From assembly GCA_964413155.1 (NCBI GenBank), contig CAYPRT010000001.1, positions 102,702-166,701 on the forward strand: 64,000 nt of DNA, in the 5' to 3' direction. Position 1 is the first letter of the stretch, and each line of letters begins with the position of its first letter. A program made the translations under genes and the position numbers. This DNA is from an uncultured Hyphomicrobiales bacterium (GTDB taxonomy: Bacteria > Bacteroidota > Ignavibacteria > Kapaibacteriales > UBA2268). Below the pieces are notes generated by a model. It did not search any database. It was not told the origin of the DNA and saw only the letters and a program-made list of their open reading frames with translations. Positions 4,129 to 41,064 of this stretch are shown here, one piece after another.

Positions 4129-4401
4129 ATGAAAGTAAAACCACTTGATGACCGTTTACTAATCAAACCATTAGAACCAGAAAGCAAGACCGCTGGGGGT
4201 ATAATCATTCCCGACACTGCAAAGGAAAAACCTATTATTGGTGAAGTTGTTGCTGTTGGCACCGATGTCGATTTACAAAGTGTTATCCAAGTTGGCGACA
4301 GAGTAATATTCGCCAAATATGGAGGGGAAGAAATAACAATCGATGGGCAAGAGTATCGCATAGTTCAACGCTCCGATATTCTGGCAATAATCGAGCACTG
4401 A
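4129..4401 (+). CDS. groES: Co-chaperonin GroES (Cpn10) paralog with no cognate groEL, 90 aa
   Basis: MKVKPLDDRLLIKP...[20 protein letters not shown] is typical Cpn10. Strong SD AGGAGG 6 nt upstream. A second groES sits upstream of groEL at 58805. Confidence 0.8.
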   Translation: MKVKPLDDRLLIKPLEPESKTAGGIIIPDTAKEKPIIGEVVAVGTDVDLQSVIQVGDRVIFAKYGGEEITIDGQEYRIVQRSDILAIIEH

Positions 4402-4422
4402 AAATAATAGGGAAAAATTACT

Positions 4423-4452
4423 GGGGATGGGTAATCCCATCCCCAATTTTTG
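4423..4452. terminator. Bidirectional rho-independent terminator hairpin between convergent genes
   Basis: GGGGATGGG-TAAT-CCCATCCCC followed by a T-run on the plus strand, and an A-run upstream that gives a T-run on the minus strand. Confidence 0.5.
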
Positions 4453-4474
4453 TTTATTCAAACAAAACGAAAAG

Positions 4475-5908
4475 TTAAAATCTATATGTAAATTGCAAGC
4501 CGATTTTAATCTGCGAAAGATTCAGTTTATAATTTTTGGCTGGGTCATCGTCGTCGGTTGGATAATTTGTTCGTAAAATTGAATTTGTAGTCAATTGAAA
4601 AGTAGGCTCCAATCGAACATTTGGGGCAACATAAATCGACATACCAAGAGAATAAATATATGTTGTTGCATTAGGTATATCAGCAGTATAAGGTGAAGTA
4701 ATTGAAGAAAAGCTTCCACGAAATTCGAATGGTAAAATTGGCGGGGAATATTGCACCCCGAAGCCCCATTGAACTTGACCAACCAATTCGCGAACAATGC
4801 GAGAATTTAACCTCTCTACTTCTGGTGGTGCATCCGTGAATCGGAGTTGAGTTACGTCAAAATACTCCACACCTGCGGCGAAAATGAAATCGATTACTTT
4901 TATTGAAACTCCTGCAGCGTAGACAAACGGCGTTGTAATTTTGTATGAGTTATATGAATTTTCAACAGGTTCATATGGATTGGGCTTCCAACCATCATCA
5001 AATTGTGCATATGCATCGCGGCGAAACTCCTCTTCTATCTGGTAGAACGTTGGGAATTTCACTGTTGCACCAAATCGAAAGAACTTCTCCAATGTTGCAA
5101 AAACTCCTACCGACCCAGAAATTCCCGATACCTTTTGAGAAAGATTTTCTTTCAAAGTGAAATTGTTAAAATCAATATTATTGTAATTGGCCGAATCGAA
5201 GTAATTGTATTTGTTTAATACATCTACTTCTTTGAACTCTCTATAATAAGTATACTTCCCAAACTTGCCCGATATGGATGCTCCAACTGAAACATTTTCT
5301 GCCACAGAAACTGCAAATCCACCAGTGACATTATGTAAGCCGCCATCTTCATTCACAAATACATTCTGTTGGACAGAATCCTTAATTGGAGTATAAAATT
5401 TGTCGTTTGCAAGCCATAAAAAGTATGGAATATTTGTATTTGTATCTTTTGGTCCAAATTTAGTAAGTGAATTAATAATGGAGCTTTTCGGATTAAAAGC
5501 GCTATAATCAAAGTAGTTCAGAAAGTTGTTTTCGTGGAAATAGCTAATACCCGCAACAACTTTGTTTTGAAACTCACTTACTGGAACTGCAAAACCAAAA
5601 TGGGTTACATAGCTTGAATTCGACCTTCTTTCCAAATTATTAAATAGATACTCTGTTTCGGCAATATTTCTTGTGAAACCCAAACCAATGGAAAGCTCAG
5701 ATTTCCCGATATATAAAATTCCTGCGGGATTGTAAATCAAACCTGAAATATCATCGGAAAGCCCATAGAACGCAACGCCAAAACTCGCAGAACGCGGAGT
5801 AATCATCGAATTCGGCATTGTATAGCGAAGAGCATCTTCAATAAATTGGGCTTTAATTGAAATAGTTGTAATTAACAAAGCTAAAGCAATTTTGAAAGGA
5901 AGTTTCAT
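4475..5908 (-). CDS. Outer-membrane beta-barrel transport protein, FadL/OmpP1/TodX-like (PorV superfamily)
   Basis: Signal peptide MKLPFKIALALLITTISIKAQ. N-terminal motif RSASFGVAFYGLSDDISGLIYNPAGIL resembles the FadL family. Beta-rich with C-terminal aromatic (..TYRF). Start moved to the internal ATG at 5908; the track's 5989 start is an in-frame upstream extension. Confidence 0.55.
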   Translation of the reverse strand: MKLPFKIALALLITTISIKAQFIEDALRYTMPNSMITPRSASFGVAFYGLSDDISGLIYNPAGILYIGKSELSIGLGFTRNIAETEYLFNNLERRSNSSYVTHFGFAVPVSEFQNKVVAGISYFHENNFLNYFDYSAFNPKSSIINSLTKFGPKDTNTNIPYFLWLANDKFYTPIKDSVQQNVFVNEDGGLHNVTGGFAVSVAENVSVGASISGKFGKYTYYREFKEVDVLNKYNYFDSANYNNIDFNNFTLKENLSQKVSGISGSVGVFATLEKFFRFGATVKFPTFYQIEEEFRRDAYAQFDDGWKPNPYEPVENSYNSYKITTPFVYAAGVSIKVIDFIFAAGVEYFDVTQLRFTDAPPEVERLNSRIVRELVGQVQWGFGVQYSPPILPFEFRGSFSSITSPYTADIPNATTYIYSLGMSIYVAPNVRLEPTFQLTTNSILRTNYPTDDDDPAKNYKLNLSQIKIGLQFTYRF

Positions 5909-5912
5909 AATA

Positions 5913-6647
5913 TTACCTTGGTCTTGTTGAACTTCTTTCTTGTTTTGTTGCTGGTTCAGCTTTTGGTGATTCCTTAATTTTTGGAGCATCCGACTTTGGT
6001 GAACTAACTTTTTGGGGTGACTTTTCCCTCAAAGGCTCATCACTTTCATTTGGTCTTACACTTTGCTTTTTCTGTTGTTCAGAACTGCGAGAAGAACTTC
6101 GCGACTCTTTTGTGGGCGATGTTCTATCATCGTATTCGTACCTACCGCGTGAGGGACCAAAATCTCGGACGGTTCGAACTTTGGGCTCGCGAGGTTCTTC
6201 AATTGGAACGTAAATTATATGATTTCTTCGATTCCACCAGTAATAATCCCAATAGGGATAGTGATAAACAACATAGTATTTTGAACGAGAATATTGCATA
6301 CAAACATACCTAAAATCCCAGAATGGGTCGTAATATGGACTCCCCATATACAAGAAAATATCAAAAGTATATGGGTCGTAAAAATCTACAAAACGTGGGT
6401 CATAAGGATAGGGATAATAGTTGTTATATATATAAATGTTTTGTTGCTCAATTTGTTTTTTTCTTTCGTAATCTACCTCATTGGGGGAAGCATAAATATA
6501 AGGTTTATCGTATTTCGATTTTTCTTTCTTTTTAACTTCGGGTACATTATTATAACCGAAGTAATCTTGTCGCGAGTTATTTGTTGAAACACAAGCAGAG
6601 AAAACCAAACTTAAAATGAAAGCCATTAAAAAAAGATTCCTTTTCAT
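5913..6647 (-). CDS. Lipoprotein with extreme Tyr/Pro/Asp/Trp-rich core and Ser/Lys/Glu/Pro-rich disordered tail; function unknown
   Basis: ATG at 6647 preceded by GGAGGG SD. Signal peptide plus lipobox (LVFSAC). Core contains YPYPYDPRFVDFYDPY...HYPYWDYYWW repeats. C-terminal ~80 aa is low-complexity S/K/E/P. A 4-bp gap to the downstream FadL-like gene implies co-transcription. Confidence 0.5.
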   Translation of the reverse strand: MKRNLFLMAFILSLVFSACVSTNNSRQDYFGYNNVPEVKKKEKSKYDKPYIYASPNEVDYERKKQIEQQNIYIYNNYYPYPYDPRFVDFYDPYTFDIFLYMGSPYYDPFWDFRYVCMQYSRSKYYVVYHYPYWDYYWWNRRNHIIYVPIEEPREPKVRTVRDFGPSRGRYEYDDRTSPTKESRSSSRSSEQQKKQSVRPNESDEPLREKSPQKVSSPKSDAPKIKESPKAEPATKQERSSTRPR

Positions 6648-6759
6648 TTTAACCCTCCCAAATGTTTTCAAGCTAATAAACGATATTAAATGGAAATTGT
6701 TTCAACAAATTTTCGAAAATTAAAATCGTCTTTTTCAATTTAGAAAATTGAAATTCTAA

Positions 6760-7863
6760 ATGGCTAAAATAAATAAAAAACGAATACTTGTTGGAATGTC
6801 GGGTGGAGTTGACTCGTCCACGGCCGCTGCAATTTTAAAATCACAAGGATATGAAGTCGTTGGAATTACTGTAACTTCAATAAAGATAACCGACGAGTGC
6901 AAAGTTCAAAACAGCACTTCTGGTTGTTGTAATTATCAATCTATAATTGACGCAAGCGATGTATGTGAATATCTTGGAATTGAGCACCATATTGTCGACC
7001 TTTCCGAAATTTTTCGAGAGAAAATAATCAGCAATTTTATTGACGAATATTTGAAAGGAAGAACGCCGAATCCTTGTTCCCTGTGTAATCCATTAATCAA
7101 ATGGGGCGAAATTTTAAAAAAAGCCGATGAATACGATTGTTATTATTATGCAACAGGACATTACGCCAAAATCGCCCAAGATAACTCTTCTGGAAGATTT
7201 TACATCAAAATGGCTAAAGATAGAACAAAGGACCAATCCTACTTCCTTTGGGGATTAACCCAAGAGCAGCTGAAACGAACCATATTCCCCCTTGGAAACT
7301 ACCTAAAAACTGAAGTCCGAAAACTTGCAAAGGAATTTGGCTTAAAAATTTACAATAAGTTTGAAAGTCAAGAAATTTGTTTTGTTCCTTCGAACAATTA
7401 CCGAGATGTATTAGAAAAATATTCCCACGAAAAGCAAGTATTTTCCGAAGGCGATATTGTTTTTCGCGGAGTTGTTGTCGGGAAACATCGTGGTTATGTA
7501 AACTACACTATTGGTCAACGAAAAGGTTTAGGAATAAGCTACCATCAGCCTTTATACGTTAAAAGAATTATTCCAGATACAAACACAATTGAAGTGGACA
7601 TTGACGAAGGTTTGAAATCTTTTAAGTTACTTGCTGATAATGTCAATTTTATTAAGTATGATTATTTTGATGAAAATAAAGAATACTTAGTTAAAATTCG
7701 ATACAAAGACAACGGAGAGAAAGCTCACTGCCGTATTCTTGACAATGAGAACCTGGAAGTAATTTTCCTAAACCCGCGAAGGGCAATTACGCCAGGACAA
7801 TCCGTAGTAATTTACGAAAATGAAGACCTTGTGGCAGGAGGTATAATATATGCAAGCGAGTAG
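6760..7863 (+). CDS. mnmA: tRNA-specific 2-thiouridylase MnmA
   Basis: PP-loop SGGVDSS, conserved MnmA core, typical length of 367 aa. Confidence 0.9.
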   Translation: MAKINKKRILVGMSGGVDSSTAAAILKSQGYEVVGITVTSIKITDECKVQNSTSGCCNYQSIIDASDVCEYLGIEHHIVDLSEIFREKIISNFIDEYLKGRTPNPCSLCNPLIKWGEILKKADEYDCYYYATGHYAKIAQDNSSGRFYIKMAKDRTKDQSYFLWGLTQEQLKRTIFPLGNYLKTEVRKLAKEFGLKIYNKFESQEICFVPSNNYRDVLEKYSHEKQVFSEGDIVFRGVVVGKHRGYVNYTIGQRKGLGISYHQPLYVKRIIPDTNTIEVDIDEGLKSFKLLADNVNFIKYDYFDENKEYLVKIRYKDNGEKAHCRILDNENLEVIFLNPRRAITPGQSVVIYENEDLVAGGIIYASE

Positions 7864-8755
7864 AAAACCCATCCTTTTCTTTTTGTTATTCATTTTGTTT
7901 TCTTCTGGACAAAATATTCTGGCAGACCAAAAACAAGAAAGCGTAAGTCAACCCGATACCTCTATCTATTGTTTCAAATATTCTTTCGATGCTGGCGATA
8001 CTCTTTTGTATTTGGTGCATTCATATGATAGTATCATTATCGATTATGGTTTACCTTTGCTTAAAATAAGGAACGAAATTTATAGAATTATTTGCGAAAA
8101 AGTAACTAAATACAATTCTTTCATTCTATCAATTGAATTAATTGAGTTTCAAGGAAGAGATTTTCAGGATACAAATTTTGTTGAATACAATGAATCTAAT
8201 TGGAAAAACCGAAAAATCAAGATAGAAATTGATTCTTTGGGAAATAGGTTTAATTTTTGGGTGGACGACTCGACGAAAAGCGGTAGAACACCCGGTGGAC
8301 CATTTCAACCTCATCTTTTCTTTTCCATCAATGAAACCTGTAAAAAAAAGAACGAAACTTGGTTAGTCCGAACCACAGAAGACCTTGTCGAAAATGGAAT
8401 ACCAATTCCACGACTTATCCACTCGATGCTTTTTAAAATGAATGGAGAAGTCGACACACTTGGCGAAAAAGTTGTACGATGCGAATTCGTTCGCACAGGG
8501 CAAGGTTCTCTTCAGCTTCAACAAATGCAAAACAATATGAAGGTAACTACAATCATCAATGCTTATGGTTTTCTTGACATTTCGAAAGAAAAAGGAATAC
8601 CTTTGCACCTATTTACAACCGAGGAACAAAAACTAAGCTTTAAAACAGAAAATACTCAAAGCACCGGAAGACATTATATCCATACAAACTATACTTTGAT
8701 TGAATATCGCAAAGCGCAAAGTTTGATTAAAAAACCAAAAGAAAAAAAGAAGTAA
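7850..8755 (+). CDS. Hypothetical secreted protein (signal peptide), 301 aa
   Basis: N-terminal signal MQASRKPILFFLLFILFSSGQNILA. ATG overlaps the mnmA stop by 14 nt. No recognisable motif. Confidence 0.4.
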   Translation: MQASRKPILFFLLFILFSSGQNILADQKQESVSQPDTSIYCFKYSFDAGDTLLYLVHSYDSIIIDYGLPLLKIRNEIYRIICEKVTKYNSFILSIELIEFQGRDFQDTNFVEYNESNWKNRKIKIEIDSLGNRFNFWVDDSTKSGRTPGGPFQPHLFFSINETCKKKNETWLVRTTEDLVENGIPIPRLIHSMLFKMNGEVDTLGEKVVRCEFVRTGQGSLQLQQMQNNMKVTTIINAYGFLDISKEKGIPLHLFTTEEQKLSFKTENTQSTGRHYIHTNYTLIEYRKAQSLIKKPKEKKK

Positions 8756-10904: not shown

Positions 10905-11474
10905 ATGAATAATGAGATAGAGAAATTAAGTGACAACGAACTATTTAAATTGCTTTCGAAAAAAGGAACTGAAAGCGAGCTTGCTTTTTTGGAAATTTAC
11001 CGTCGATACTCTGGTCGTATATTTGCTTATTGTAAAAGATTTTTAGGAAACAAAGAAGACGCTATGGATATATTTCAGGACACATTTGTTAATTTTTATC
11101 AAGCTGCCGATAATAAAGGAAGGGAGATGACTAATCTTCCAGCTTTTTTATTGCGAATTGCCCGGAACTTATGTTTAAATTTTGTTAGACAAAATAAAAA
11201 GACCTCTCATTTAGAAGATTATATGCGATACGAAAACAACTCGGACTTTGCAGAAAACGATGAACTACTTGGTATGATAAAAATAGCAGTACAACAATTA
11301 CCCGAGGACTACCGAGAAGCCTTCATCTTGCGAGAATATGAAGGTATGAGCTACCAAGAAATTGCCGAGTTTTTAAATATTTCACTACCGTTGGTTAAAA
11401 TCAGAATTTTCCGTGCAAAAGAAAAACTTCGCGAAATCCTTGCTCCTTATATTTCTGAATTGTCAAAATTGTAG
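10905..11474 (+). CDS. RNA polymerase sigma-70 factor, ECF subfamily
   Basis: Region 2 (DIFQDTFVNFYQ) and region 4 HTH (EGMSYQEIAEFLNISLPLVKIRIFRAKEKLR). 189 aa. Confidence 0.8.
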   Translation: MNNEIEKLSDNELFKLLSKKGTESELAFLEIYRRYSGRIFAYCKRFLGNKEDAMDIFQDTFVNFYQAADNKGREMTNLPAFLLRIARNLCLNFVRQNKKTSHLEDYMRYENNSDFAENDELLGMIKIAVQQLPEDYREAFILREYEGMSYQEIAEFLNISLPLVKIRIFRAKEKLREILAPYISELSKL

Positions 11475-11485
11475 AAGGTGAAACG

Positions 11486-12664
11486 ATGGATACAGAAAAC
11501 ATTTCGAAAAAAATCATTGAATTTCTCGATGGTGAACTTCCCCAAGCAGAAGAACATAGCCTTTTCTTTGCTCTTTCGGAAAGCGATGAACTACGAAACA
11601 TCTTGAAAGAACATCTTGCAATTTCTCGCTCTGTCCGAAATGATTTTTCTGCTTTTGTACCCCCAAGTTCCGCTATTTTTAATATTGCCAATACATTGAA
11701 TTTAAAAACAATTGGGAATGCAGTTGCCAATAAACCTTCCTTTTTCGCAAAATATGGCAAGAAAGCAGTTCTTATGCTGTCGACTTCAATTTTAACTTTT
11801 CTTTTGACTTTCCTTTTGATAAATTCACATGGCAGAAACAACTCCGAACCTGTTAAAGCAATTGTTCAAACTCCACCAATTATTATCGCTGAACACGAGA
11901 ACAATACTTCTGATGATAAGTATTTAACAAAACAAAAACTTAACAATGTTTCGAACATAAATCCAAATAGTTACTTTTTGGGCAAAGTTTCTAAATCATC
12001 GGCAGCAGTATCCGAACAAAGGCAACAATCCACATCAAACATCGCCTGCATTGAACCTATTACAAATAATCCGAACAACTTTAATGAAATTGACAGAAAT
12101 GTTTCATCACAGTATATTAAACCCACAAAACTTTTTTATTGTAGCTACCCGACAGTAAACACTTTGCTCCAAGATAAATCATTTGTAATAACTTTAAGAG
12201 GACTTACTGGTAAATCCTTTCCCAATCCCGACGTAGCAACAAACGAATTCCCATCTCTGTCGAACTTGAGCTGTGGCTTTTACTTTACCCAATGGAACAA
12301 CATCAAATTTGGAATTGAATTTGGAAGGGAAACCTTTGGACTTTCTTACGAAAACATTGAAAATGGAATTTTATTCAACTATGAACAAAAGCCATCAATT
12401 CTTTGGGGGGCTGTTGGAATTGACTATTCAATTCCTATTTCATTCTACAGCCCATTCCAACCATTTGTAACGGTATTGGCTGGTGGAACACAAATCGGTG
12501 GACCTTTAGTAAAAGGAATTGGTGGAATTCGTTATCGACCAGCAAATTCTAATTTCGAAGCTTACCTTGGCGCCGAAGGAACTTTGCTATTTTACCAAAA
12601 TCAAAAAATATTTTATTTAACAAGGAAAATTGGATTGACATATGGAATCTCGATTATTTTTTAA
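11486..12664 (+). CDS. Putative membrane anti-sigma factor (N-terminal anti-sigma domain, one TM helix, beta-rich C-terminal domain)
   Basis: 11 nt downstream of the ECF sigma gene. N-terminus EFLDGELPQAEEHSLFFALSESDELRNILKEHLAISRSV resembles an anti-sigma N-terminal domain. Single TM (AVLMLSTSILTFLLTFLLI). C-terminal ~130 aa is Gly/aromatic-rich and beta-strand-like, ending in F. Confidence 0.5.
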   Translation: MDTENISKKIIEFLDGELPQAEEHSLFFALSESDELRNILKEHLAISRSVRNDFSAFVPPSSAIFNIANTLNLKTIGNAVANKPSFFAKYGKKAVLMLSTSILTFLLTFLLINSHGRNNSEPVKAIVQTPPIIIAEHENNTSDDKYLTKQKLNNVSNINPNSYFLGKVSKSSAAVSEQRQQSTSNIACIEPITNNPNNFNEIDRNVSSQYIKPTKLFYCSYPTVNTLLQDKSFVITLRGLTGKSFPNPDVATNEFPSLSNLSCGFYFTQWNNIKFGIEFGRETFGLSYENIENGILFNYEQKPSILWGAVGIDYSIPISFYSPFQPFVTVLAGGTQIGGPLVKGIGGIRYRPANSNFEAYLGAEGTLLFYQNQKIFYLTRKIGLTYGISIIF

Positions 12665-13433
12665 ACTCAAGGTGTTGAAAAAGAAACTTACCATATTAAT
12701 TTTGGTCAGTTTTGTATTATCTTTTCAGTATTGTTCCCCTCCAACTGGACTCGATACTCCAATTAAGATTACTCCAAAAGAAAGGGAAAAAACATTCATT
12801 CGACCCCAGGTTTCTTTCTTTTCTTTCGAAGAAAATGGCGTCGAACAAAATTATTACAACTTTAATCCCAATCATTTTAAAATTGAAAAGGTCGAAATAT
12901 TTGTCGACACACTAATCCAACCACCAAGGATTTGGTTCCGTTTGATGACAGAAAAAGAAAATAAAGGAAAGATGGGCGACCACTGGCGAATTTTTATTAA
13001 ATCATTTAACTTCAATATAGATTCATTCCCTGTGCTTGGAATTCCTTTGAATATTAAAACTGGTGAATATCTAAATACTTGGATAAAATTTTTACTTCGT
13101 CGAGGCGCAAAAGAAAGTTATGATACTTTAATAGATCCTTGCAAATTGCCAAATTCCTTTGAAATCAATTTTTCGTTGAACAAACCATATCGGGAAATAT
13201 GGGCAACTGGGTATAGCAAACTGTACAACACTCGCTTCGAAACAATCCTGCGCGATACAACCATTATTGATTCTGTGAAAAAATATCGTTGGGATACTAC
13301 TTGGATCGATAACCAACCCGTCATCAAAAAAGAAGAATACTGGGAGAAAAAAGAAATTAAAATGAAAATCGAAGAAATAACTCCTTTCCCTGATTCTTTG
13401 ATATTAAATTTTAAATTCCGAATGAAATATTAA
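12642..13433 (+). CDS. Hypothetical lipoprotein/secreted protein, 263 aa
   Basis: Hydrophobic signal region KLTILILVSFVLSFQYC. Overlaps the anti-sigma 3' end; the true start may be the internal GTG/TTG at ~12672. No known motif. Confidence 0.4.
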   Translation: MESRLFFKLKVLKKKLTILILVSFVLSFQYCSPPTGLDTPIKITPKEREKTFIRPQVSFFSFEENGVEQNYYNFNPNHFKIEKVEIFVDTLIQPPRIWFRLMTEKENKGKMGDHWRIFIKSFNFNIDSFPVLGIPLNIKTGEYLNTWIKFLLRRGAKESYDTLIDPCKLPNSFEINFSLNKPYREIWATGYSKLYNTRFETILRDTTIIDSVKKYRWDTTWIDNQPVIKKEEYWEKKEIKMKIEEITPFPDSLILNFKFRMKY

Positions 13434-13482
13434 AAAATAAATTTTGTATGTATAAAATTTGTTTCTTCAAAATGGAGGTTTT

Positions 13483-16020
13483 ATGAAAATCAGAAACTTC
13501 TTGTGGGGAGCGCTCATTTTGGTTCTTTCATTATCTCCACTTTTCGCGCAAAACCAAGCACCAAATCCACCGCGACAACTCATTGGTACCTCCTCTCCAA
13601 ATCCCGATGGAACTTACAATGTAAAGCTTAGTTGGTTCATCGACAAAGCAAATTATTCAAATTATGTATTCCCCGATGGATTTAATATCTACCAAACAAT
13701 TCTCCAAGGTGGCGTTGTCAAAAATACCCTCGTTGGTTCTATTAATTCTAATCCAAATCAATTTAGCTACGAATATATAATTACCAATCTTGCTCAAGGA
13801 ACCTATCAGTTTTATGTGACTTCCTTCAAAGGGAATGTACAAAGTCAACCGAGCAACAAAATTACTCTACAACTTTATAACGAGAATAAGTACTATATCA
13901 AAATTATTTCGCAACCTCCACTATATGCTTATGTTGGGAAAAAATATGTTTATCAAATCAAAGTCACAACAAATTTAGATTGCCCGATCGATGTTTTTGA
14001 ATTCGAAGGGGATGTTCCAGAAGGAATGACAATTTCTCCCACTGGCTTAATTGAATGGACACCCCAACAAACCGGTATTTACAAAATCGAAGTAAAAGCA
14101 GGGACTTCGTGCAAAGTAAATGTTGAAGCCGCAAGGCAAACTTTCAAAATACAAGTTCTTGATAGCGTACCACCTAACGAAAAACCTTATGTAAGAATCA
14201 TTAGTCAGCCACAAAATTTTGCAACTATTGGAATTCCTTGGGTATACAAAGTTATTACAGAAACAAATGTTTATTGTGTTGTTCGATACAAAATCTTAGA
14301 AACAGATATCCAAGATTTAGAAATTAATGAAGAAACAGGTTTAATCTCGTGGACACCCCAAAAACCTGGTGTTTACAATTTCACGGTTATGGCATATCTC
14401 CTTTGCGATGACAATGTTTATGATAAACAAAAAGTTACAATCAATGTTGAAGAAAACAATGCAAACAATAATTGTGTACATTTAGTTGGATACGCTTCGT
14501 TCGAGGATGGAACTCTTGTGCCCAACGGAGTTGCAATTGCTTGGAAATTAGATTCGGACAATAATCAAACAAACTCTAATTTTAAAACAACAATTCAGCA
14601 AGGATTCTTCCAATTCTTCTTGCCACCTGGGGTTTATGTTTTTGAGTTCAACGGGGAATTATTTGACCACCAATTTTATGATAAAGCAACTCGATTGTTG
14701 GACGCAACCAAAATTTCCCTTGATTGCGAAAAAACCCCAGAATTCACGTTAAAAGTAGTTTTAACAAAGAAAAATCCACCAGAACTTTACAAAGTTTCTG
14801 GCTATGTCTTGGATGCTAACGATAATTCGCCTGTGCCAGCAATGGTTGAATTTATCCCCGTTGAAATGCTATTCAAGCCCGGTAAATTGAATAACTACGG
14901 AGTTGTTCCTCGTTTTGTAACAAAGACCGATAATGAAGGGAAATATGAAATTGAATTACCTAACAACTTTGCATACATTGCCCATGCAATTCCACTTGAC
15001 AAAACTGCCTATGCCGACCAGTATTACCAACTTTCCTCTTCACCATATAATGCAGATATTATAGTGCTTGTAGAAGATTTAGAAGGTATCGACTTCCTGT
15101 TGAAACCACAAGAAAAATTCAATAATGGATTCGCTGGTATTGTTATCGATAAAGACAGAAATCCAATCGAATCGCGAGTAATCGCAATACTGGTAAAACC
15201 AAATGAGCCGGCAAATTACGCTCCAAATTCAACCATTAGAGTTGTTGAAACAGACCAACAAGGACATTTCTTATTCCAAAATTTGCCACCGGGAGAATAT
15301 GTGCTGCTTTCTATTCCAAAAGATCCCAAGTATGTTCCGGGGTATTATAAAATGAATGACTTTGCAACATTAAAATGGCGCGAAGCTACGCGAGTTGCTG
15401 TCGATAAAGTTATGATTCAAATAATTTATGAAATCAAACACAAAGAACTAAGTTCTTTGAAAGGCTTGGTTACATTCTGTGGCTATGTTGGCGAAGCTTC
15501 GGGAATTATGAAATCATTCGATAAACCACAAAGTTATCCGCCAATAGGAGAGTCACTGGTTTTGGCTTTGGATATTCAAGGAAATGTCATAAATTATACG
15601 TTGGCGGACAAAGATGGCTATTTCATTCTAGAAGAACTTCCTGCTGGTATGTTGAAACTATTGGTTTCGAAAGTAGGCTACAAAGACCTTGAAACCACAG
15701 TCGATGCTAATTTTGAAAATAACTCTTATTTATACTTTGAGTTTAATTTGGAAAAGGAAGTTTCTTCGGTCGAAATCGATAATAATTTGAACCTAATCGT
15801 ATCGCAAACAGAAGATTTCTTGCTACTCGAAACCACATCCGAAACAGAAATTCAAGCAGTTAAATTATTTGACCTTTATGGAAAATTAGTCGTATCTAAC
15901 GAAAACATTCAAGCTACATCAACTCGAATTCCAATTAATTCTATTTCGAGCGGCATTTACTTCATCAGTGTCGCAACAAACAAAGGCTTGTATTCTGGAA
16001 AAGTTTCAATCGTTCGTTGA
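13483..16020 (+). CDS. Large cell-surface protein: signal peptide, two tandem He_PIG-type putative Ig domains, CarboxypepD_reg-like repeats, T9SS C-terminal sorting domain
   Basis: ATG at 13483 with GGAGG SD 5 nt upstream; the track start at 13459 is an extension. Two ~90-aa repeats (IISQPPLYAYVGKKYVYQIKV...GLIEWTPQQTGIYKIEV and IISQPQNFATIGIPWVYKVI...GLISWTPQKPGVYNFTV). C-terminus ...SGIYFISVATNKGLYSGKVSIVR is typical of a T9SS CTD. Confidence 0.6.
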   Translation: MKIRNFLWGALILVLSLSPLFAQNQAPNPPRQLIGTSSPNPDGTYNVKLSWFIDKANYSNYVFPDGFNIYQTILQGGVVKNTLVGSINSNPNQFSYEYIITNLAQGTYQFYVTSFKGNVQSQPSNKITLQLYNENKYYIKIISQPPLYAYVGKKYVYQIKVTTNLDCPIDVFEFEGDVPEGMTISPTGLIEWTPQQTGIYKIEVKAGTSCKVNVEAARQTFKIQVLDSVPPNEKPYVRIISQPQNFATIGIPWVYKVITETNVYCVVRYKILETDIQDLEINEETGLISWTPQKPGVYNFTVMAYLLCDDNVYDKQKVTINVEENNANNNCVHLVGYASFEDGTLVPNGVAIAWKLDSDNNQTNSNFKTTIQQGFFQFFLPPGVYVFEFNGELFDHQFYDKATRLLDATKISLDCEKTPEFTLKVVLTKKNPPELYKVSGYVLDANDNSPVPAMVEFIPVEMLFKPGKLNNYGVVPRFVTKTDNEGKYEIELPNNFAYIAHAIPLDKTAYADQYYQLSSSPYNADIIVLVEDLEGIDFLLKPQEKFNNGFAGIVIDKDRNPIESRVIAILVKPNEPANYAPNSTIRVVETDQQGHFLFQNLPPGEYVLLSIPKDPKYVPGYYKMNDFATLKWREATRVAVDKVMIQIIYEIKHKELSSLKGLVTFCGYVGEASGIMKSFDKPQSYPPIGESLVLALDIQGNVINYTLADKDGYFILEELPAGMLKLLVSKVGYKDLETTVDANFENNSYLYFEFNLEKEVSSVEIDNNLNLIVSQTEDFLLLETTSETEIQAVKLFDLYGKLVVSNENIQATSTRIPINSISSGIYFISVATNKGLYSGKVSIVR

Positions 16021-38349: not shown

Positions 38350-38517
38350 TTTTGTCCAAAGAAAAAACACAAAAATAAATTAAAAAATTTTAATGAATTC
38401 GGTAAGAAATGACAATATTTTTTTTCCTTAATTGAAGAATGCAAATTAATAAAAATATTTTAGAAAAAATCAATTTGCTATTATTATTGTAAATTTGTTA
38501 ATTAATTGGAGGGAAAA

Positions 38518-41064
38518 ATGAAAAATATTTGTGTGATTTTCATTGTGGTAATTTTCATTGTTCACAACCTTTATTCAAAAGATGGAGATACAGTTAGGAT
38601 TAATACCATTCAATTTGGAAGCCCGAAATATGGTTGGTTCGAATTCCCAGACTCATCAAAAAAATTTCAAAAAATTTTGATGAACTATACTATTAAATGC
38701 CCTTGCGGGGAGTGGGACTATCTTGCTATGGTTTTTGTTAAACAATTTTTTGCTCCCAGCTTCCGAGTAGATAGCACAGTTTTGCCCGAATTTGCTTGTA
38801 TGTTCGACACATCATGGAATTACTCTGCCAAAGTTGAAAATGGGAAATTAGTAGTAGATTCCACACCAAAAAAGCCTCGCCTTTTAGAATTTTATTCCGA
38901 TAGCACCAATCCAACAATTCGAACATCTTATCGATATGTTTGGGATACCTACTACCGCTACGAATTCGACAAAAATGGTAATCCAATTGATTCATTTTTA
39001 GTCCAGCCCGACACTATTTTGTATTTAACAAAACGAAGAATTTATTTCGACGACCCAGTTGCAATTGCCGATAGGTATGAAATTATGCGATTTGTCACTC
39101 CATATGGGATTGGTTTAGATGTTGGTGATGGTTTCACATGGACAATGGACGTTACAGATTTTTGGCCATTACTTCAAGGAAAAGTATTCATTGACGCACC
39201 CAACCAGCAGGAAGCAATTCAAATCACATTTGATTTCATCGAAGGTGAACCAGAACGCGATATCATTCGATTTGAAAGAATTTATGATTTTATTGATGTT
39301 GTCTACGACAAAAATTTCGAAAAGAAAGTAGGCAAAATCCAAGTTCAAACCTCGCCTTCTACAGCAAAAATGTATAAATTAAAAGTAATTCAAACAGGTC
39401 ATGGATTCGGTGGCAATGATGATAATTGCTGCGAATTTTGTAAAAAAAATGCATATGTTAAAGTTAACGATACAATTCGCTACACACGTGAAGTATGGCG
39501 AATCTGCTCCGAAAATCCTCTCTACCCGCAAGGCGGAACCTGGTTGCTCAACCGAACCAACTGGTGTCCAGGCGCCGAAGTTCAACCCTTTGATTTCGAA
39601 CTTACTCCTTTCATTGGGAACTACCGCTCTTTTACTTTTGATTACGATATGGATTATTATGATAAACCATATTCATCGGGTAGCAATACAATTGGTCGTT
39701 GGATAATTACCGCTTATCTAATCGCTTACACCAACCTTAAGTTTAATTTAGATGCAGAAATTTATGATATTATTGCTCCAAGCAAAAAAGATGTTTATAA
39801 AAGAGTGAACCCAACTTCTACCCATCCAATTATAGTCATCAGAAATCGTGGTTCAGAAACTATTACAAAACTTAAACTAAAATATGGCATAGTTAATGCA
39901 AAAGAATATGTATACGAATGGTCTGGTGAAATTAAATCATTAGCTTCACAACAAATTACTCTTCCAAGTTTAGATTGTAGCGATTGGAAAAGCAATAGCA
40001 ACAAATTCAAAGTTGAAATTTTGGAAGTCAATGAGAAAAATGATGAATACACATCGAATAACATTGGTTATTCCGAATTTGTACCCCCAGCTTCGTTTTA
40101 TAACAATTTAATTATTAAAGTAAAAACTAACAATTTCAACGTTCTTTCCAACGACCCATTGGCTCAACCATATTCATACAAAATCCAGGATTCTAAGGAT
40201 AATGTAATACTTTCAAAGATAGGTTTGCTTCCTTCTACAACTTATAGCGATACTATAAATCTTGATGATGGATGTTACGAATTTTACTTCGAAAATCAAT
40301 TGGAGTGTGGGCTGGGTTTTTGGTTCTATAAACAATATTTAGGACTTAACGATGGACTATTGCAAATTTCCAGCGATAATTTGATTTTATTCCAACCTAA
40401 TATTGATTTTGGTCGTTCTCTCCACCAATTTTTTATCGCAGAAGACCAACCAACCATCAAGTTTTCTCCCGATACAATTAATTTCGGAGATGTTTCAATA
40501 ACTCAAACAACAACACAGAAAGCAATTATCAAACCTGCAAATCAGAAAGGTATTTCCCTGTGGAACTTCGATTTAGTTTTAGGTTCAACCAAAGGTTTTT
40601 CCATTGCAAAAATCGAACCTGACCCCGACCAGAGTGGCGTTTGGAACTTGTCCTATGGTGATTCAATCGTTGTTCATATTTCGTTCTCCCCAAAAAAAGT
40701 TGGTAAAACATCAACAAGTTTAACTTTTTTCACAAATGATAAGAAAAATGCTTCGGTTTCAATACCTATTAGAGCAAATGTTGTTTCGGAAAGTTATGTT
40801 GAAGATAATCCTGTTGCTCCATATATTGAACTGATAAACAATAAGAAAAACTTATATGTTTTTAATATTGATATACCAGAAAGTGAAATTCTAACTTGCA
40901 CTATTTATAATATCTTAGGAAAGTCAATTTCATCGGATGAAGTAAATCCTAGTTTACACAAATATTATGTAGATATGACAAGATTTGGTTCTGGCTGCTA
41001 TTGGATTACATTTCAAACCAATAGAAGAATTTTCGCTTTCCCTGTAGTTGTAATTAACGATTAA
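38518..41064 (+). CDS. Secreted multidomain protein: PNGase F-like N-terminal region, choice-of-anchor-D (ASH/Ig-like) domain, T9SS C-terminal sorting domain
   Basis: ATG 38518 with GGAGGG SD. Blocks recalled from Elizabethkingia PNGase F: CGEWDYLAMVFV (vs CDEWDRYANVYV), YEIMRFVTPYGIG (vs YEIGRFITPYWVG), MDVTDFWPLLQG (vs IDVTDFKSLLSG), NWCPGAEV (vs GWCPGMAV). ASH-like stretch FGDVSITQTTTQKAIIKPANQKGISLWNFDL...LTFFTND. C-terminal CTD ...CYWITFQTNRRIFAFPVVVIND. Confidence 0.55.
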   Translation: MKNICVIFIVVIFIVHNLYSKDGDTVRINTIQFGSPKYGWFEFPDSSKKFQKILMNYTIKCPCGEWDYLAMVFVKQFFAPSFRVDSTVLPEFACMFDTSWNYSAKVENGKLVVDSTPKKPRLLEFYSDSTNPTIRTSYRYVWDTYYRYEFDKNGNPIDSFLVQPDTILYLTKRRIYFDDPVAIADRYEIMRFVTPYGIGLDVGDGFTWTMDVTDFWPLLQGKVFIDAPNQQEAIQITFDFIEGEPERDIIRFERIYDFIDVVYDKNFEKKVGKIQVQTSPSTAKMYKLKVIQTGHGFGGNDDNCCEFCKKNAYVKVNDTIRYTREVWRICSENPLYPQGGTWLLNRTNWCPGAEVQPFDFELTPFIGNYRSFTFDYDMDYYDKPYSSGSNTIGRWIITAYLIAYTNLKFNLDAEIYDIIAPSKKDVYKRVNPTSTHPIIVIRNRGSETITKLKLKYGIVNAKEYVYEWSGEIKSLASQQITLPSLDCSDWKSNSNKFKVEILEVNEKNDEYTSNNIGYSEFVPPASFYNNLIIKVKTNNFNVLSNDPLAQPYSYKIQDSKDNVILSKIGLLPSTTYSDTINLDDGCYEFYFENQLECGLGFWFYKQYLGLNDGLLQISSDNLILFQPNIDFGRSLHQFFIAEDQPTIKFSPDTINFGDVSITQTTTQKAIIKPANQKGISLWNFDLVLGSTKGFSIAKIEPDPDQSGVWNLSYGDSIVVHISFSPKKVGKTSTSLTFFTNDKKNASVSIPIRANVVSESYVEDNPVAPYIELINNKKNLYVFNIDIPESEILTCTIYNILGKSISSDEVNPSLHKYYVDMTRFGSGCYWITFQTNRRIFAFPVVVIND

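What the first reader, a model, noticed from the sequence alone, without database searches (positions are those of the whole stretch)
4475..6647. Two-gene envelope module: aromatic/Pro-rich low-complexity lipoprotein plus FadL/PorV-like outer-membrane barrel
The lipoprotein (5913..6647) has a bona fide signal peptide and lipobox, a strong SD, and an extraordinary core: YIYNNYYPYPYDPRFVDFYDPYTFDIF...YYVVYHYPYWDYYWWNRRNH. That core runs about 45% Tyr/Pro/Trp/Asp/Phe. It is followed by an ~80-aa Ser/Lys/Glu/Pro-rich disordered tail. Four bp downstream, and apparently co-transcribed, is a 477-aa FadL-type barrel. No characterised family has this composition. It could be a surface-adhesive or phase-separating cell-envelope protein delivered or anchored through the barrel.
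Basis: seen in the sequence. Interest (0 to 1): 0.55.

Follow-up and report, generated by a model that had tools for sequence, protein, structure and literature searches.

The report
BamG-like barrel with aromatic disordered lipoprotein
This is a real, conserved two-gene operon in Kapaibacteria/Ignavibacteria: a FadL-fold outer-membrane barrel closest to BamG (a subunit of the Bacteroidota barrel-assembly machine) plus an undescribed lipoprotein that is 38% aromatic and mostly disordered, sitting where the BamG partner gene bamH lies in related phyla.

Summary
On the minus strand, a 244-aa lipoprotein (6647..5913) and a 477-aa barrel (5908..4475) are 4 nt apart. There is no terminator between them and one hairpin terminator after the pair.

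- **Both genes are real.** dN/dS against a close relative is 0.19 (lipoprotein) and 0.09 (barrel).
- **The pair is the only conserved block.** A lipoprotein of the same build lies directly upstream in 71 of 83 related loci, with barrel identity down to about 28%. Flanking genes vary.
- **The lipoprotein matches no curated family.** It has a lipobox Cys, a YFGYNN motif, a Tyr/Trp/Pro core, an RDFGPSRG motif and a basic Ser/Arg tail ending R-x-R. AlphaFold2 does not fold it.

Best reading (about 0.4): a BamG/BamH-type barrel-lipoprotein module with a non-BamH partner. I could not test BAM association, surface exposure or the presence of a second BamG in the genome.

The parts
6648..6759 (-). 5' intergenic region shared with the divergent mnmA gene. 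It holds the Shine-Dalgarno GGGAGGG (6654-6660) and a weak sigma-70-like match (6738..6709).
   Evidence: The promoter match is consensus-level only.
5913..6647 (-). Lipoprotein gene (244 aa plus stop).
   Evidence: 16 homologous clusters; dN/dS 0.19; the family lies upstream of the barrel in 71 of 83 loci.
6591..6647 (-). Signal peptide and lipobox (aa 1-19, ..LVFSAC). Cys19 is invariant.
   Evidence: A profile of this region hits the signal peptides of solved lipoproteins such as PqiC.
6537..6590 (-). Conserved N-terminal tail of the mature lipoprotein (aa 20-37, VSTNNSRQDYFGYNNVPE). The motif is [YFW][YFW]G[YFW][NST], about 10 aa after the Cys.
   Evidence: F30, G31, N33, N34 and P36 are invariant in A1. 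The motif is present in 52 of 56 family members.
6198..6437 (-). Aromatic/Pro-rich core (aa 71-150): 38.8% Y/W/F and 10% Pro.
   Evidence: Family-wide, the core is Y 25.6%, P 10.6%, W 8.5%, G 6.8%, N 6.2%. AlphaFold2 pLDDT is about 40, with no secondary structure.
6144..6167 (-). Conserved RDFGPSRG motif (aa 161-168) at the boundary between core and tail.
   Evidence: R161, F163, G164, P165, S166 and R167 are invariant in A1. G164 is invariant and R161 and R167 are at least 90% conserved across the 39 diverse members of A4.
5916..6197 (-). Basic Ser/Arg/Lys/Pro/Glu-rich tail (aa 151-244) with conserved PTKExRSSSR and C-terminal TKQERSSTRPR.
   Evidence: dN/dS is 0.14. Across the family the tail is 75-389 aa with net charge +4 to +54, and 45 of 56 members end [RK]-x-[RK].
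4475..5908 (-). FadL-fold, BamG-like outer-membrane barrel gene (477 aa plus stop).
5783..5848 (-). Mature N-terminus of the barrel (aa 21-42, QFIEDALRYTMPNSMITPRSAS). It is extended by about 11-13 aa relative to E. coli FadL and is the most conserved stretch of the protein.
   Evidence: Q21 and D25 are invariant, and E24, A26, L27 and R28 are at least 90% conserved in 41 sequences. Register against FadL comes, and against BtBamG.
5330..5344 (-). GGLHN motif (aa 189-193), the start of the strand pair shared specifically with Bacteroides BamG.
   Evidence: G189 and G190 are invariant. HMMER and hhalign alignments to BtBamG are centred here.
4420..4447 (.). Bidirectional intrinsic-terminator hairpin (12-bp stem, 7 G-C pairs, T-runs on both sides) that ends the operon and the convergent groES.

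Best explanation
The two genes encode a dedicated barrel-lipoprotein complex of the outer membrane. It is the Kapaibacteria/Ignavibacteria counterpart of the BamG-BamH module that extends the BAM complex in the Bacteroidota and other FCB phyla.

**Shown**
- The pair forms an operon and is conserved as a self-contained unit.
- The barrel has a FadL fold with an extended, highly conserved N-terminus.
- BamG is its closest curated family.
- The partner is a lipoprotein whose roughly 17 residues after the lipidated Cys are its most conserved part.

**Inferred**
- The barrel packs against BamA.
- The lipid anchor and the YFGYNN tail of the lipoprotein dock on the barrel, as the conserved N-terminal tail of BamH does on BamG.
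- The Tyr/Trp/Pro-rich, non-globular core then sits beside the BamA folding site. It would do there whatever the Tyr/Gly/Asn-rich, disordered loop EL3 of Bacteroidota BamA does, for example transient aromatic contacts with nascent strands or the membrane interface.
- The variable basic Ser/Arg tail acts as a flexible, charged tether or spacer.
- The folded BamH canopy has been replaced here by an unrelated, disordered protein.
For: **Operon and conservation**
- The gap is 4 nt, with no internal terminator and one terminator after the pair.
- A family lipoprotein lies directly upstream on the same strand in 71 of 83 loci, down to about 28% barrel identity. No other neighbour is conserved.
- Both genes are under purifying selection.

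**Barrel**
- AlphaFold2 pLDDT is 90.3.
- The Foldseek top hit is B. thetaiotaomicron BamG 9hiv_F (E 1.3e-19). F. johnsoniae and P. gingivalis BamG are also among the top hits.
- BamG (NF053685) is the best NCBIfam family for 30 of 41 and 10 of 11 members, up to 93 bits and E 1.7e-26. FadL PRK10716 matches 1 of 11 at E 0.0017.
- hhalign against Bacteroides BamG gives 75% probability and E 2.5e-5 over the GGLH..NLSVG..WG motif. Against E. coli FadL it gives 9% and E 3.4e-3.
- The mature N-terminus is about 11-13 aa longer than FadL's and is the most conserved segment. This matches the BamG hallmark described in PMC12578637.

**Gene order in other FCB phyla**
- bamG and bamH are adjacent in Ignavibacterium (IALB_1455/1454), Salinibacter, Fibrobacter, Gemmatimonas, Caldithrix and Chitinophaga, and in the BamG2H2 pairs (PMC12611786, Suppl. 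Table 1).

**Parallels with BAM components**
- BamH residues 18-34, just after the lipid anchor, are its conserved BamG-binding part. That is the same position as the YFGYNN motif here.
- Bacteroidota BamA carries a disordered Tyr/Gly/Asn-rich loop of unknown function at the folding site. Its composition resembles the lipoprotein core.

**Context**
- The genome encodes T9SS-CTD proteins. That fits the correlation Liu et al. drew between BamGH and the T9SS translocon SprA; the translocon itself was not looked for here.
Against: - BamG HMM scores (34 bits for the window protein, at most 93 in the family) are far below the 250-bit equivalog cut-off.
- The N-terminal extension has a different sequence from Bacteroides BamG. 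The BamG C-terminal extension, which contacts BamD, is absent.
- The lipoprotein shows no sequence similarity to anything, BamH chains in the PDB included.
- The lipoprotein is not predicted to fold (pLDDT 46.9).
- The lipoprotein lacks the acidic surface-export signal that BamH-K carry (0 of 56 members).
- I could not see whether the same genome holds another, better BamG/BamH pair.
- I could not see whether IALB_1454/1455 belong to these families.
- Eight loci have the barrel without an adjacent lipoprotein.
Confidence: 0.4

Rival explanations
1. The pair is a stand-alone FadL-type channel with a dedicated partner lipoprotein and is not part of BAM. One version is uptake of hydrophobic or aromatic compounds, with the aromatic lipoprotein as a capture or accessory factor. 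Another is a barrel that exports or anchors only its own lipoprotein, like the unexplained BamG2-BamH2 paralogue pairs.
For: - A PDB profile search with the distant barrels puts TbuX first (E 4.7e-7).
- Many relatives carry PF03349 and are annotated as FadL-type transporters.
- The NPA hatch motif is invariant.
- The BamG score is below its cut-off.
- BamG2H2 pairs of unknown role exist in Bacteroides and Flavobacterium.
Against: - The pair is never embedded in a catabolic operon, and its flanks are unrelated housekeeping genes.
- One locus per genome was recovered among 79 species genomes. The search was motif-limited, so this is weak evidence.
- The extended, highly conserved N-terminus is the BamG feature said to block the FadL transport path.
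- Sequence profiles favour BamG over FadL.
Confidence: 0.3
2. The lipoprotein is a periplasm-facing envelope tether or spacer. Its lipid anchor and aromatic core sit at the inner face of the outer membrane, bound to the barrel, and the long basic Ser/Arg tail binds peptidoglycan or another anionic periplasmic polymer.
For: - No acidic surface-export signal is present in any of 56 members.
- Tails always carry net positive charge (+4 to +54), vary in length (75-389 aa) and end R-x-R or R-x-K in 45 of 56 members.
- The tail is under purifying selection (dN/dS 0.14).
Against: - There is no recognisable peptidoglycan-binding domain.
- The terminal residue is mostly Arg, not the Lys used for Lpp-type covalent attachment.
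- This reading does not explain why a FadL-fold barrel is co-inherited.
- It is compatible with, rather than exclusive of, the two readings above.
Confidence: 0.15
3. [quoted passage not shown]
For: - PorV_fam matches 19 of 41 and 7 of 11 family members (best E 9.8e-14).
- The genome encodes T9SS C-terminal-domain proteins.
Against: - PorV_fam scores stay below its cut-off (51.6 against 90) and cover only the shared N-terminal hatch region.
- PorV is absent from the top Foldseek hits.
- The lipoprotein has no T9SS C-terminal domain.
Confidence: 0.05
4. The adjacency is chance, or the low-complexity lipoprotein ORF is not a real gene.
For: - The sequence is low-complexity.
- AlphaFold2 gives no fold.
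Against: - Synteny holds in 71 of 83 loci across deep divergence.
- dN/dS is 0.19.
- The Cys and the motifs are invariant.
- The ORF has a Shine-Dalgarno sequence and a 4-nt coupling to the barrel gene.
Confidence: 0.01

Closest known systems
BamG (NCBIfam NF053685): the FadL-fold subunit of the Bacteroidota BAM complex (PDB 9HIV/9HJ3 chain F, 9N2D chain B, 9HJM chain F)
   Same: - It is a 14-stranded FadL-fold barrel.
- It is the best-scoring curated family for the barrel family here.
- Both share the GGLH..NLSVG..WG strand motif.
- Both have an N-terminus extended relative to FadL and highly conserved.
- Both have Gln as the first mature residue.
- In both, the gene often lies next to a lipoprotein gene in FCB phyla.
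   Different: - Identity is only 11-15%, and HMM scores are 34-93 bits against a 250-bit cut-off.
- The N-terminal extension has a different sequence (QFIEDALRY against QNNTNSPYTRYGYGD).
- There is no C-terminal extension; the protein ends ..TYRF.
- It is about 50-85 aa longer than the solved BamG chains.
- Association with BamA is untested.
BamH: the surface lipoprotein docked on BamG (B. thetaiotaomicron BT_4306, F. johnsoniae Fjoh_0823)
   Same: - It is a lipoprotein.
- Its gene lies immediately beside the barrel gene in many FCB phyla.
- The roughly 17 residues after the lipidated Cys are the conserved part.
   Different: - There is no detectable sequence similarity.
- It is 244 aa and not predicted to fold, whereas BamH is a folded, elongated two-domain protein.
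- It has no acidic surface-export signal.
- It has an aromatic low-complexity core and a basic disordered tail.
FadL/TodX/TbuX hydrophobic-compound channels (Pfam PF03349)
- The NPA hatch motif is invariant.
- Many relatives carry PF03349.
   Different: - The N-terminus here is extended and conserved.
- The gene is not in a catabolic context.
- It is obligately paired with a lipoprotein gene.
- Profile comparison with E. coli FadL is weaker than with BamG.
Tyr/Gly/Asn-rich extracellular loop 3 of Bacteroidota BamA
   Same: - It is strongly Tyr-rich, with Gly and Asn.
- It is disordered (no cryo-EM density).
- Its function is unknown.
- It is located at the BAM folding site.
   Different: - It is a 38-residue loop of BamA itself, not a separate lipoprotein.
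- Any functional link is my inference from composition only.
Plug-and-barrel or threaded lipoprotein-barrel pairs (LptE-LptD, RcsF-OmpA/C/F), recalled from general knowledge
   Same: A lipoprotein with a disordered, positively charged segment is stably paired with an outer-membrane barrel.
   Different: - They are unrelated in sequence and fold.
- No evidence here for threading.

Membership tests
FadL/OmpP1/TodX superfamily (PF03349) | 14-stranded barrel with an N-terminal hatch domain | tested here: met
   - AlphaFold2 pLDDT 90.3, pTM 0.83.
- Foldseek E about 1e-16 to 1e-17 to FadL.
FadL/OmpP1/TodX superfamily (PF03349) | Conserved NPA motif in the hatch | tested here: met
   N60, A62 and G63 are invariant and P61 is at least 90% conserved in 41 sequences. 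The motif aligns to FadL's NPA.
FadL/OmpP1/TodX superfamily (PF03349) | Match to the Pfam model | tested here: inconclusive
   The window protein gives no Pfam hit at E up to 1. Many relatives carry a precomputed PF03349 hit.
BamG (NF053685) | Score at or above the curated equivalog cut-off (250 bits) | tested here: not met
   34.2 bits for the window protein. The best in the family is 93.2 bits.
BamG (NF053685) | Closer to BamG than to other FadL-fold families | tested here: met
   - BamG is the top NCBIfam family in 30 of 41 and 10 of 11 members.
- hhalign gives 75% probability against BamG and 9% against FadL.
- The Foldseek top hit is 9hiv_F.
BamG (NF053685) | Extended, highly conserved N-terminus relative to FadL | tested here: met
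   There are 22 mature residues before the xGxAxxG hatch motif, against 11 in FadL and 26 in BtBamG. QFIEDALR is the most conserved stretch. Its sequence differs from the Bacteroides motif.
BamG (NF053685) | N-terminus threads through the lateral opening and touches BamA | not testable with these tools
BamG (NF053685) | Conserved C-terminal extension (contacts BamD) | tested here: not met
   The family ends ..TYR[FY] at the last strand. BtBamG ends ..GLTFNERWFFKRRVE.
BamG (NF053685) | Stable subunit of the BamA complex; essential | not testable with these tools
   This needs pull-down and genetics.
BamH | Sequence or fold homology to BamH (folded, elongated two-domain surface lipoprotein) | tested here: not met
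   - There is no recurrent Pfam or NCBIfam hit in 39 members.
- An N-terminal profile finds no BamH chain in the PDB.
- AlphaFold2 pLDDT is 46.9 with no secondary structure in the core. The alignment had only 16 sequences.
BamH | Lipoprotein whose residues just after the lipid anchor are conserved (the BamG-docking tail) | tested here: met
   The Cys is invariant. The YFGYNNxP motif lies about 10 aa after the Cys in 52 of 56 members. Compare BtBamH residues 18-34. Docking itself is untested.
BamH | Acidic lipoprotein export signal (at least 2 D/E within six residues after the Cys) | tested here: not met
   0 of 56 members have two or more acidic residues there. The rule was defined in Bacteroidota and may not transfer to this lineage.
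BamH | Gene adjacent to the bamG-type barrel gene (as in most non-Bacteroidia FCB genomes listed by Liu et al.) | tested here: met
   71 of 83 loci.
PorV/PorQ (NF033709, NF033710) | HMM score above the cut-off and a PorV-like structure | tested here: not met
Bacterial lipoprotein (signal peptidase II substrate) | Signal peptide with a lipobox and an invariant Cys | tested here: met
   The sequence reads ..LVFSAC. The Cys is invariant in A1 and A4. The profile matches the signal peptides of solved lipoproteins. Lipidation itself is not testable here.

The most novel reading that the evidence does not exclude
In Kapaibacteria/Ignavibacteria, the folded extracellular BamH canopy of the FCB-type BAM complex has been replaced by an intrinsically disordered lipoprotein that is about 38% aromatic. 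Its Tyr/Trp/Pro core would act directly on nascent outer-membrane proteins or on the membrane interface at the BamA seam. It could work as a disordered 'aromatic holdase', possibly threaded through or wedged into the BamG-like barrel. Its basic tail would reach the other side of the membrane or the peptidoglycan.
Probability: 0.15. Interest if true: 0.8.

Novelty: new variant of a known kind. Interest (0 to 1): 0.5.

Why it matters
BamG and BamH were described only in 2025. Their mechanism, and the role of the Tyr-rich loop of BamA, are still open questions.

If this pair is BAM-associated, it would show two things. The barrel subunit is the conserved core of the module, while its lipoprotein partner is interchangeable. 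A non-globular aromatic sequence can also stand in for a folded canopy. That would give a natural experiment on what the extracellular or accessory part of this BAM type actually has to do.

Whatever its role, the lipoprotein is an unannotated, lineage-wide family. Only 42 clusters at 50% identity among 1.84 billion proteins match the narrow profile of its closest subfamily, and all are labelled 'hypothetical'. Its build is unusual and sharply defined, and it could be given a family model.

Tried and rejected
- **Curated family searches on the lipoprotein.** Pfam, NCBIfam and PDB sequence searches with the window protein, with 39 diverse members and with an N-terminal profile found nothing recurrent. 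Only generic lipoprotein signal peptides matched.
- **Structure of the lipoprotein.** AlphaFold2 with the 16-sequence alignment gave pLDDT 46.9. I did not run a fold search on it, because the matches would be meaningless.
- **Finding Ignavibacterium album IALB_1454/1455.** These are listed as BamH/BamG by Liu et al. They were not identifiable among the 120 listed hits of the profile search or among the 79 genome loci. The papers give no method or sequences. Whether that published pair belongs to these families remains open.
- **AFDB fold library.** It was unavailable.
- **Fold comparison.** It could not separate BamG from FadL.
- **Other conserved neighbours.** A search for BamA, BamD, Lol or others found none. 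A LolD-like ABC gene follows the barrel only in the lipoprotein-less L073, L076 and L165 clade.
- **Paralogues in the window.** There are none.
- **Rfam.** Nothing in the region.
- **PorV-like reading.** Rejected on score and structure.
- **Chance adjacency.** Rejected on synteny and selection.
Full report
**What is there**

On the minus strand, an ATG at 6647 follows a GGGAGGG Shine-Dalgarno and opens a 244-aa ORF ending at 5913. Four nucleotides later, an ATG at 5908 opens a 477-aa ORF ending at 4475.

The first protein starts MKRNLFLMAFILSLVFSAC, which is a signal peptide plus lipobox. The second has a signal-peptidase-I signal ending IKA|QFIEDALRY.

No terminator separates the genes. A 12-bp G+C-rich hairpin with T-runs at 4420-4447 follows the barrel gene and also serves the convergent groES. 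Rfam finds nothing in the region.

The lipoprotein core (aa 71-150) is 38.8% Tyr/Trp/Phe and 57.5% Tyr/Trp/Phe/Pro/Asp. The last 94 residues are Ser/Arg/Pro/Glu/Lys-rich with net charge +8.

**Both genes are real and selected**

The lipoprotein has 16 homologous clusters at 40-100% identity, from Kapaibacteria and Ignavibacteria metagenome-assembled genomes. All are unnamed.

Their alignment shows these conserved features:
- an invariant Cys19;
- an FGYNNxP motif about 10 residues after the Cys;
- NNYYPYPYDPR, YDPFWD and YPYWDYYWWxRR blocks;
- TVRDFGPSRG;
- PTKExRSSSR;
- a C-terminal TKQERSSTRPR.

Against the closest relative (L004), dN/dS is 0.19 for the lipoprotein: 0.26 for the N-terminal part, 0.21 for the core and 0.14 for the tail. 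It is 0.09 for the barrel. So the 'disordered' tail is also constrained.

**The pair is the conserved unit**

A scan of one genome per species returned 79 loci, with barrel identity from 92% down to 28%. With four more loci from contig look-ups this makes 83, a few of them duplicate copies of the same contig.

An HMM of the lipoprotein family finds a member directly upstream, on the same strand, in 71 of these 83 loci. Two more loci are cut by contig ends. Two of the ten 'misses' (L028, L051) are visibly truncated members.

Real absences are:
- a small high-GC clade (L036, L044, L049);
- L038;
- an Ignavibacteria clade (L073, L076, L080, L081). In L073, L076 and the related L165, the barrel is instead followed by a LolD-like ABC ATPase.

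Clustering all neighbouring ORFs shows that nothing else is conserved beyond the closest relatives.

**The lipoprotein family**

All members, from low-GC Kapaibacteria to high-GC lineages (L082, L083, L167), share one plan:
- a lipobox Cys;
- an aromatic-aromatic-Gly-aromatic motif within 20 residues of the Cys (52 of 56 members);
- a polar, mostly acidic linker;
- a core with a median of 38% Tyr/Trp/Phe (family-wide: Y 25.6%, P 10.6%, W 8.5%, G 6.8%, N 6.2%);
- an RxFGxSR motif;
- a tail of 75-389 residues that is 63% Ser/Thr/Gly/Asn/Gln/Pro, always net positive (+4 to +54), and ends [RK]-x-[RK] in 45 of 56 members.

None of the 56 has two acidic residues within six positions of the Cys. That is the surface-export rule cited for BamH-K.

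No Pfam or NCBIfam family recurs among 39 members. A profile of the close subfamily finds only 42 clusters at 50% identity in 1.84 billion proteins. Those with a name are called 'hypothetical protein'.

AlphaFold2 gives pLDDT 46.9 and no secondary structure in the core. The alignment was shallow.

**The barrel**

AlphaFold2 gives pLDDT 90.3 and pTM 0.83.

| Comparison | Result |
|---|---|
| Foldseek, B. thetaiotaomicron BamG (9hiv_F) | top hit, E 1.3e-19 |
| Foldseek, E. coli FadL | E 2.4e-17 |
| Foldseek, F. johnsoniae BamG | E 7.5e-17 |
| Foldseek, P. gingivalis BamG | E 8.7e-15 |

So the fold is FadL-type and not PorV-like, but fold alone cannot choose between FadL and BamG.

Sequence does lean one way:
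- The only meaningful NCBIfam hit for the window protein is BamG (NF053685): E 1.4e-8, 34 bits, cut-off 250.
- BamG is the top family for 30 of 41 close members and 10 of 11 distant members, rising to 93 bits and E 1.7e-26. FadL's model matches one member at E 0.0017.
- I recovered full-length Bacteroides BamG from gut-metagenome contigs. hhalign against it gives 75% probability and E 2.5e-5 on a shared GGLH..NLSVG..WG motif. Against E. coli FadL it gives 9% and E 3.4e-3.
- In the other direction, a PDB profile search with the distant barrels ranks TbuX first (E 4.7e-7), ahead of FadL and BamG (E about 0.005-0.007 each).
- The mature N-terminus (QFIEDALRY...) has 22 residues before the hatch motif, against 11 in FadL and 26 in BtBamG. 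It is the most conserved stretch of the family. An extended, conserved N-terminus is the feature that Silale et al. say distinguishes BamG from transporting FadL channels.

Against membership:
- Scores are far below the cut-off.
- The N-terminal sequence differs from Bacteroides BamG.
- The conserved BamG C-terminal extension (..NERWFFKRRVE in BtBamG) is absent; the family ends ..TYRF.

**Comparison with what is known**

Two 2025 papers show that the Bacteroidota BAM complex contains an essential FadL-fold barrel, BamG, packed against BamA. BamG holds the lipidated, conserved N-terminal tail of the surface lipoprotein BamH, which forms an extracellular canopy (PMC12611786; PMC12578637).

Liu et al. 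report BamG and BamH in six further FCB phyla. Their accession table shows the two genes adjacent in Ignavibacterium album (IALB_1455/1454), Salinibacter, Fibrobacter, Gemmatimonas, Caldithrix, Gracilimonas and Chitinophaga, and in the BamG2H2 paralogue pairs.

The pair studied here has the same gene arrangement, a barrel closest to BamG, and a lipoprotein whose conserved part is the segment just after the lipid anchor. But the lipoprotein is not BamH by any test I could run.

Silale et al. also describe a 38-residue Tyr/Gly/Asn-rich, disordered loop (EL3) of BamA that projects over the folding site and has no known function. The lipoprotein core has a similar composition. This is a resemblance, not a tested link.

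**Most likely mechanism (about 0.4) and its rivals**

Best reading: the operon encodes a BamG/BamH-type barrel-lipoprotein module.
- The barrel docks on BamA.
- The lipoprotein's anchor and YFGYNN tail dock on the barrel.
- The aromatic core acts at the folding site or membrane interface.
- The basic tail serves as a charged tether or spacer.

The operon, the synteny, the fold, the family leaning and the motif positions are shown. Every physical contact, and the side of the membrane on which the lipoprotein lies, is inferred.

Rivals:
- A BAM-independent FadL-type channel with its own accessory or cargo lipoprotein (0.3).
- A periplasmic tether role for the lipoprotein (0.15, compatible with either of the above).
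- A PorV-like T9SS role (0.05).
- Chance adjacency (0.01).

**Limits**

- I could not inspect the rest of the genome for a better BamG/BamH pair.
- I could not retrieve IALB_1454/1455.
- I could not run a multimer prediction or read model coordinates.

These are the decisive missing tests.

**Verdict**

- The barrel is a distant new member of a known kind.
- The lipoprotein is an undescribed family.
- Together they are best filed as a new variant of the BamG-lipoprotein module, with moderate interest.

Noticed in passing
L077:3249-4298 and 4326-4928; L168:3354-3995: In one Ignavibacteria lineage, two lipoprotein genes lie in tandem upstream of the barrel. The shorter one (about 200-213 aa, starting CYTVL[RK]HPE) carries a CxxCH motif (CYSCH or CTKCH), which is the c-type haem attachment pattern. 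It keeps the basic ..STRGK end.
   Followed up: partly
L073:6413-7120; L076:6409-7125; L165:5496-8769: In the Ignavibacteria clade whose barrel has no adjacent lipoprotein, the barrel gene is followed by, and slightly overlaps, a LolD-like ABC ATPase. In L076 and L165 an 821-aa CarboxypepD_reg/OMP_b-brl_3 outer-membrane protein comes next.
   Followed up: partly
L036, L044, L049 (barrel at about 4920-6365, 4953-6365 and 1303-2772): A high-GC (56-60%) clade keeps the barrel, with its QFVEDALR N-terminus, but has an alanine-dehydrogenase-like gene upstream. No family lipoprotein lies within 5 kb.
   Followed up: partly
window 5846-5848 (barrel Gln21): The first mature residue of the barrel is an invariant Gln, as in Bacteroides BamG (AIA|QNN). 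From memory, this fits the 'Q-rule' of Bacteroidota, in which Gln after signal peptidase I cleavage is cyclised to pyroglutamate. I did not check it in the literature here.
   Followed up: no
window 13459-16017 and 38506-41061: Two large secreted proteins carry a T9SS C-terminal sorting domain (Por_Secre_tail). One also has He_PIG, Y_Y_Y and CarboxypepD_reg domains. The other has PNGase F-like domains. So the organism has a type IX secretion system.
   Followed up: partly
window 7850-8755: A 301-aa secreted protein has no Pfam hit, and its start overlaps the end of mnmA. A homologue recurs next to the pair in 9 closely related loci only.
   Followed up: partly
window 10905-13433: An ECF-type sigma factor gene is followed by a 392-aa and a 263-aa ORF with no Pfam hits. 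The 392-aa protein could be an anti-sigma factor, judging from its position next to the sigma gene and a central hydrophobic stretch; neither the sigma assignment nor this was tested. They lie just upstream of the T9SS-CTD protein.
   Followed up: no
window 4420-4447: A single hairpin with T-runs on both strands serves as the terminator for both the barrel operon and the convergent groES gene.
   Followed up: yes
L004 versus window: In the closest relative, the barrel is 92% identical but the lipoprotein only about 76% identical. The partner lipoprotein evolves about three times faster at non-synonymous sites (dN 0.11 against 0.04).
   Followed up: yes
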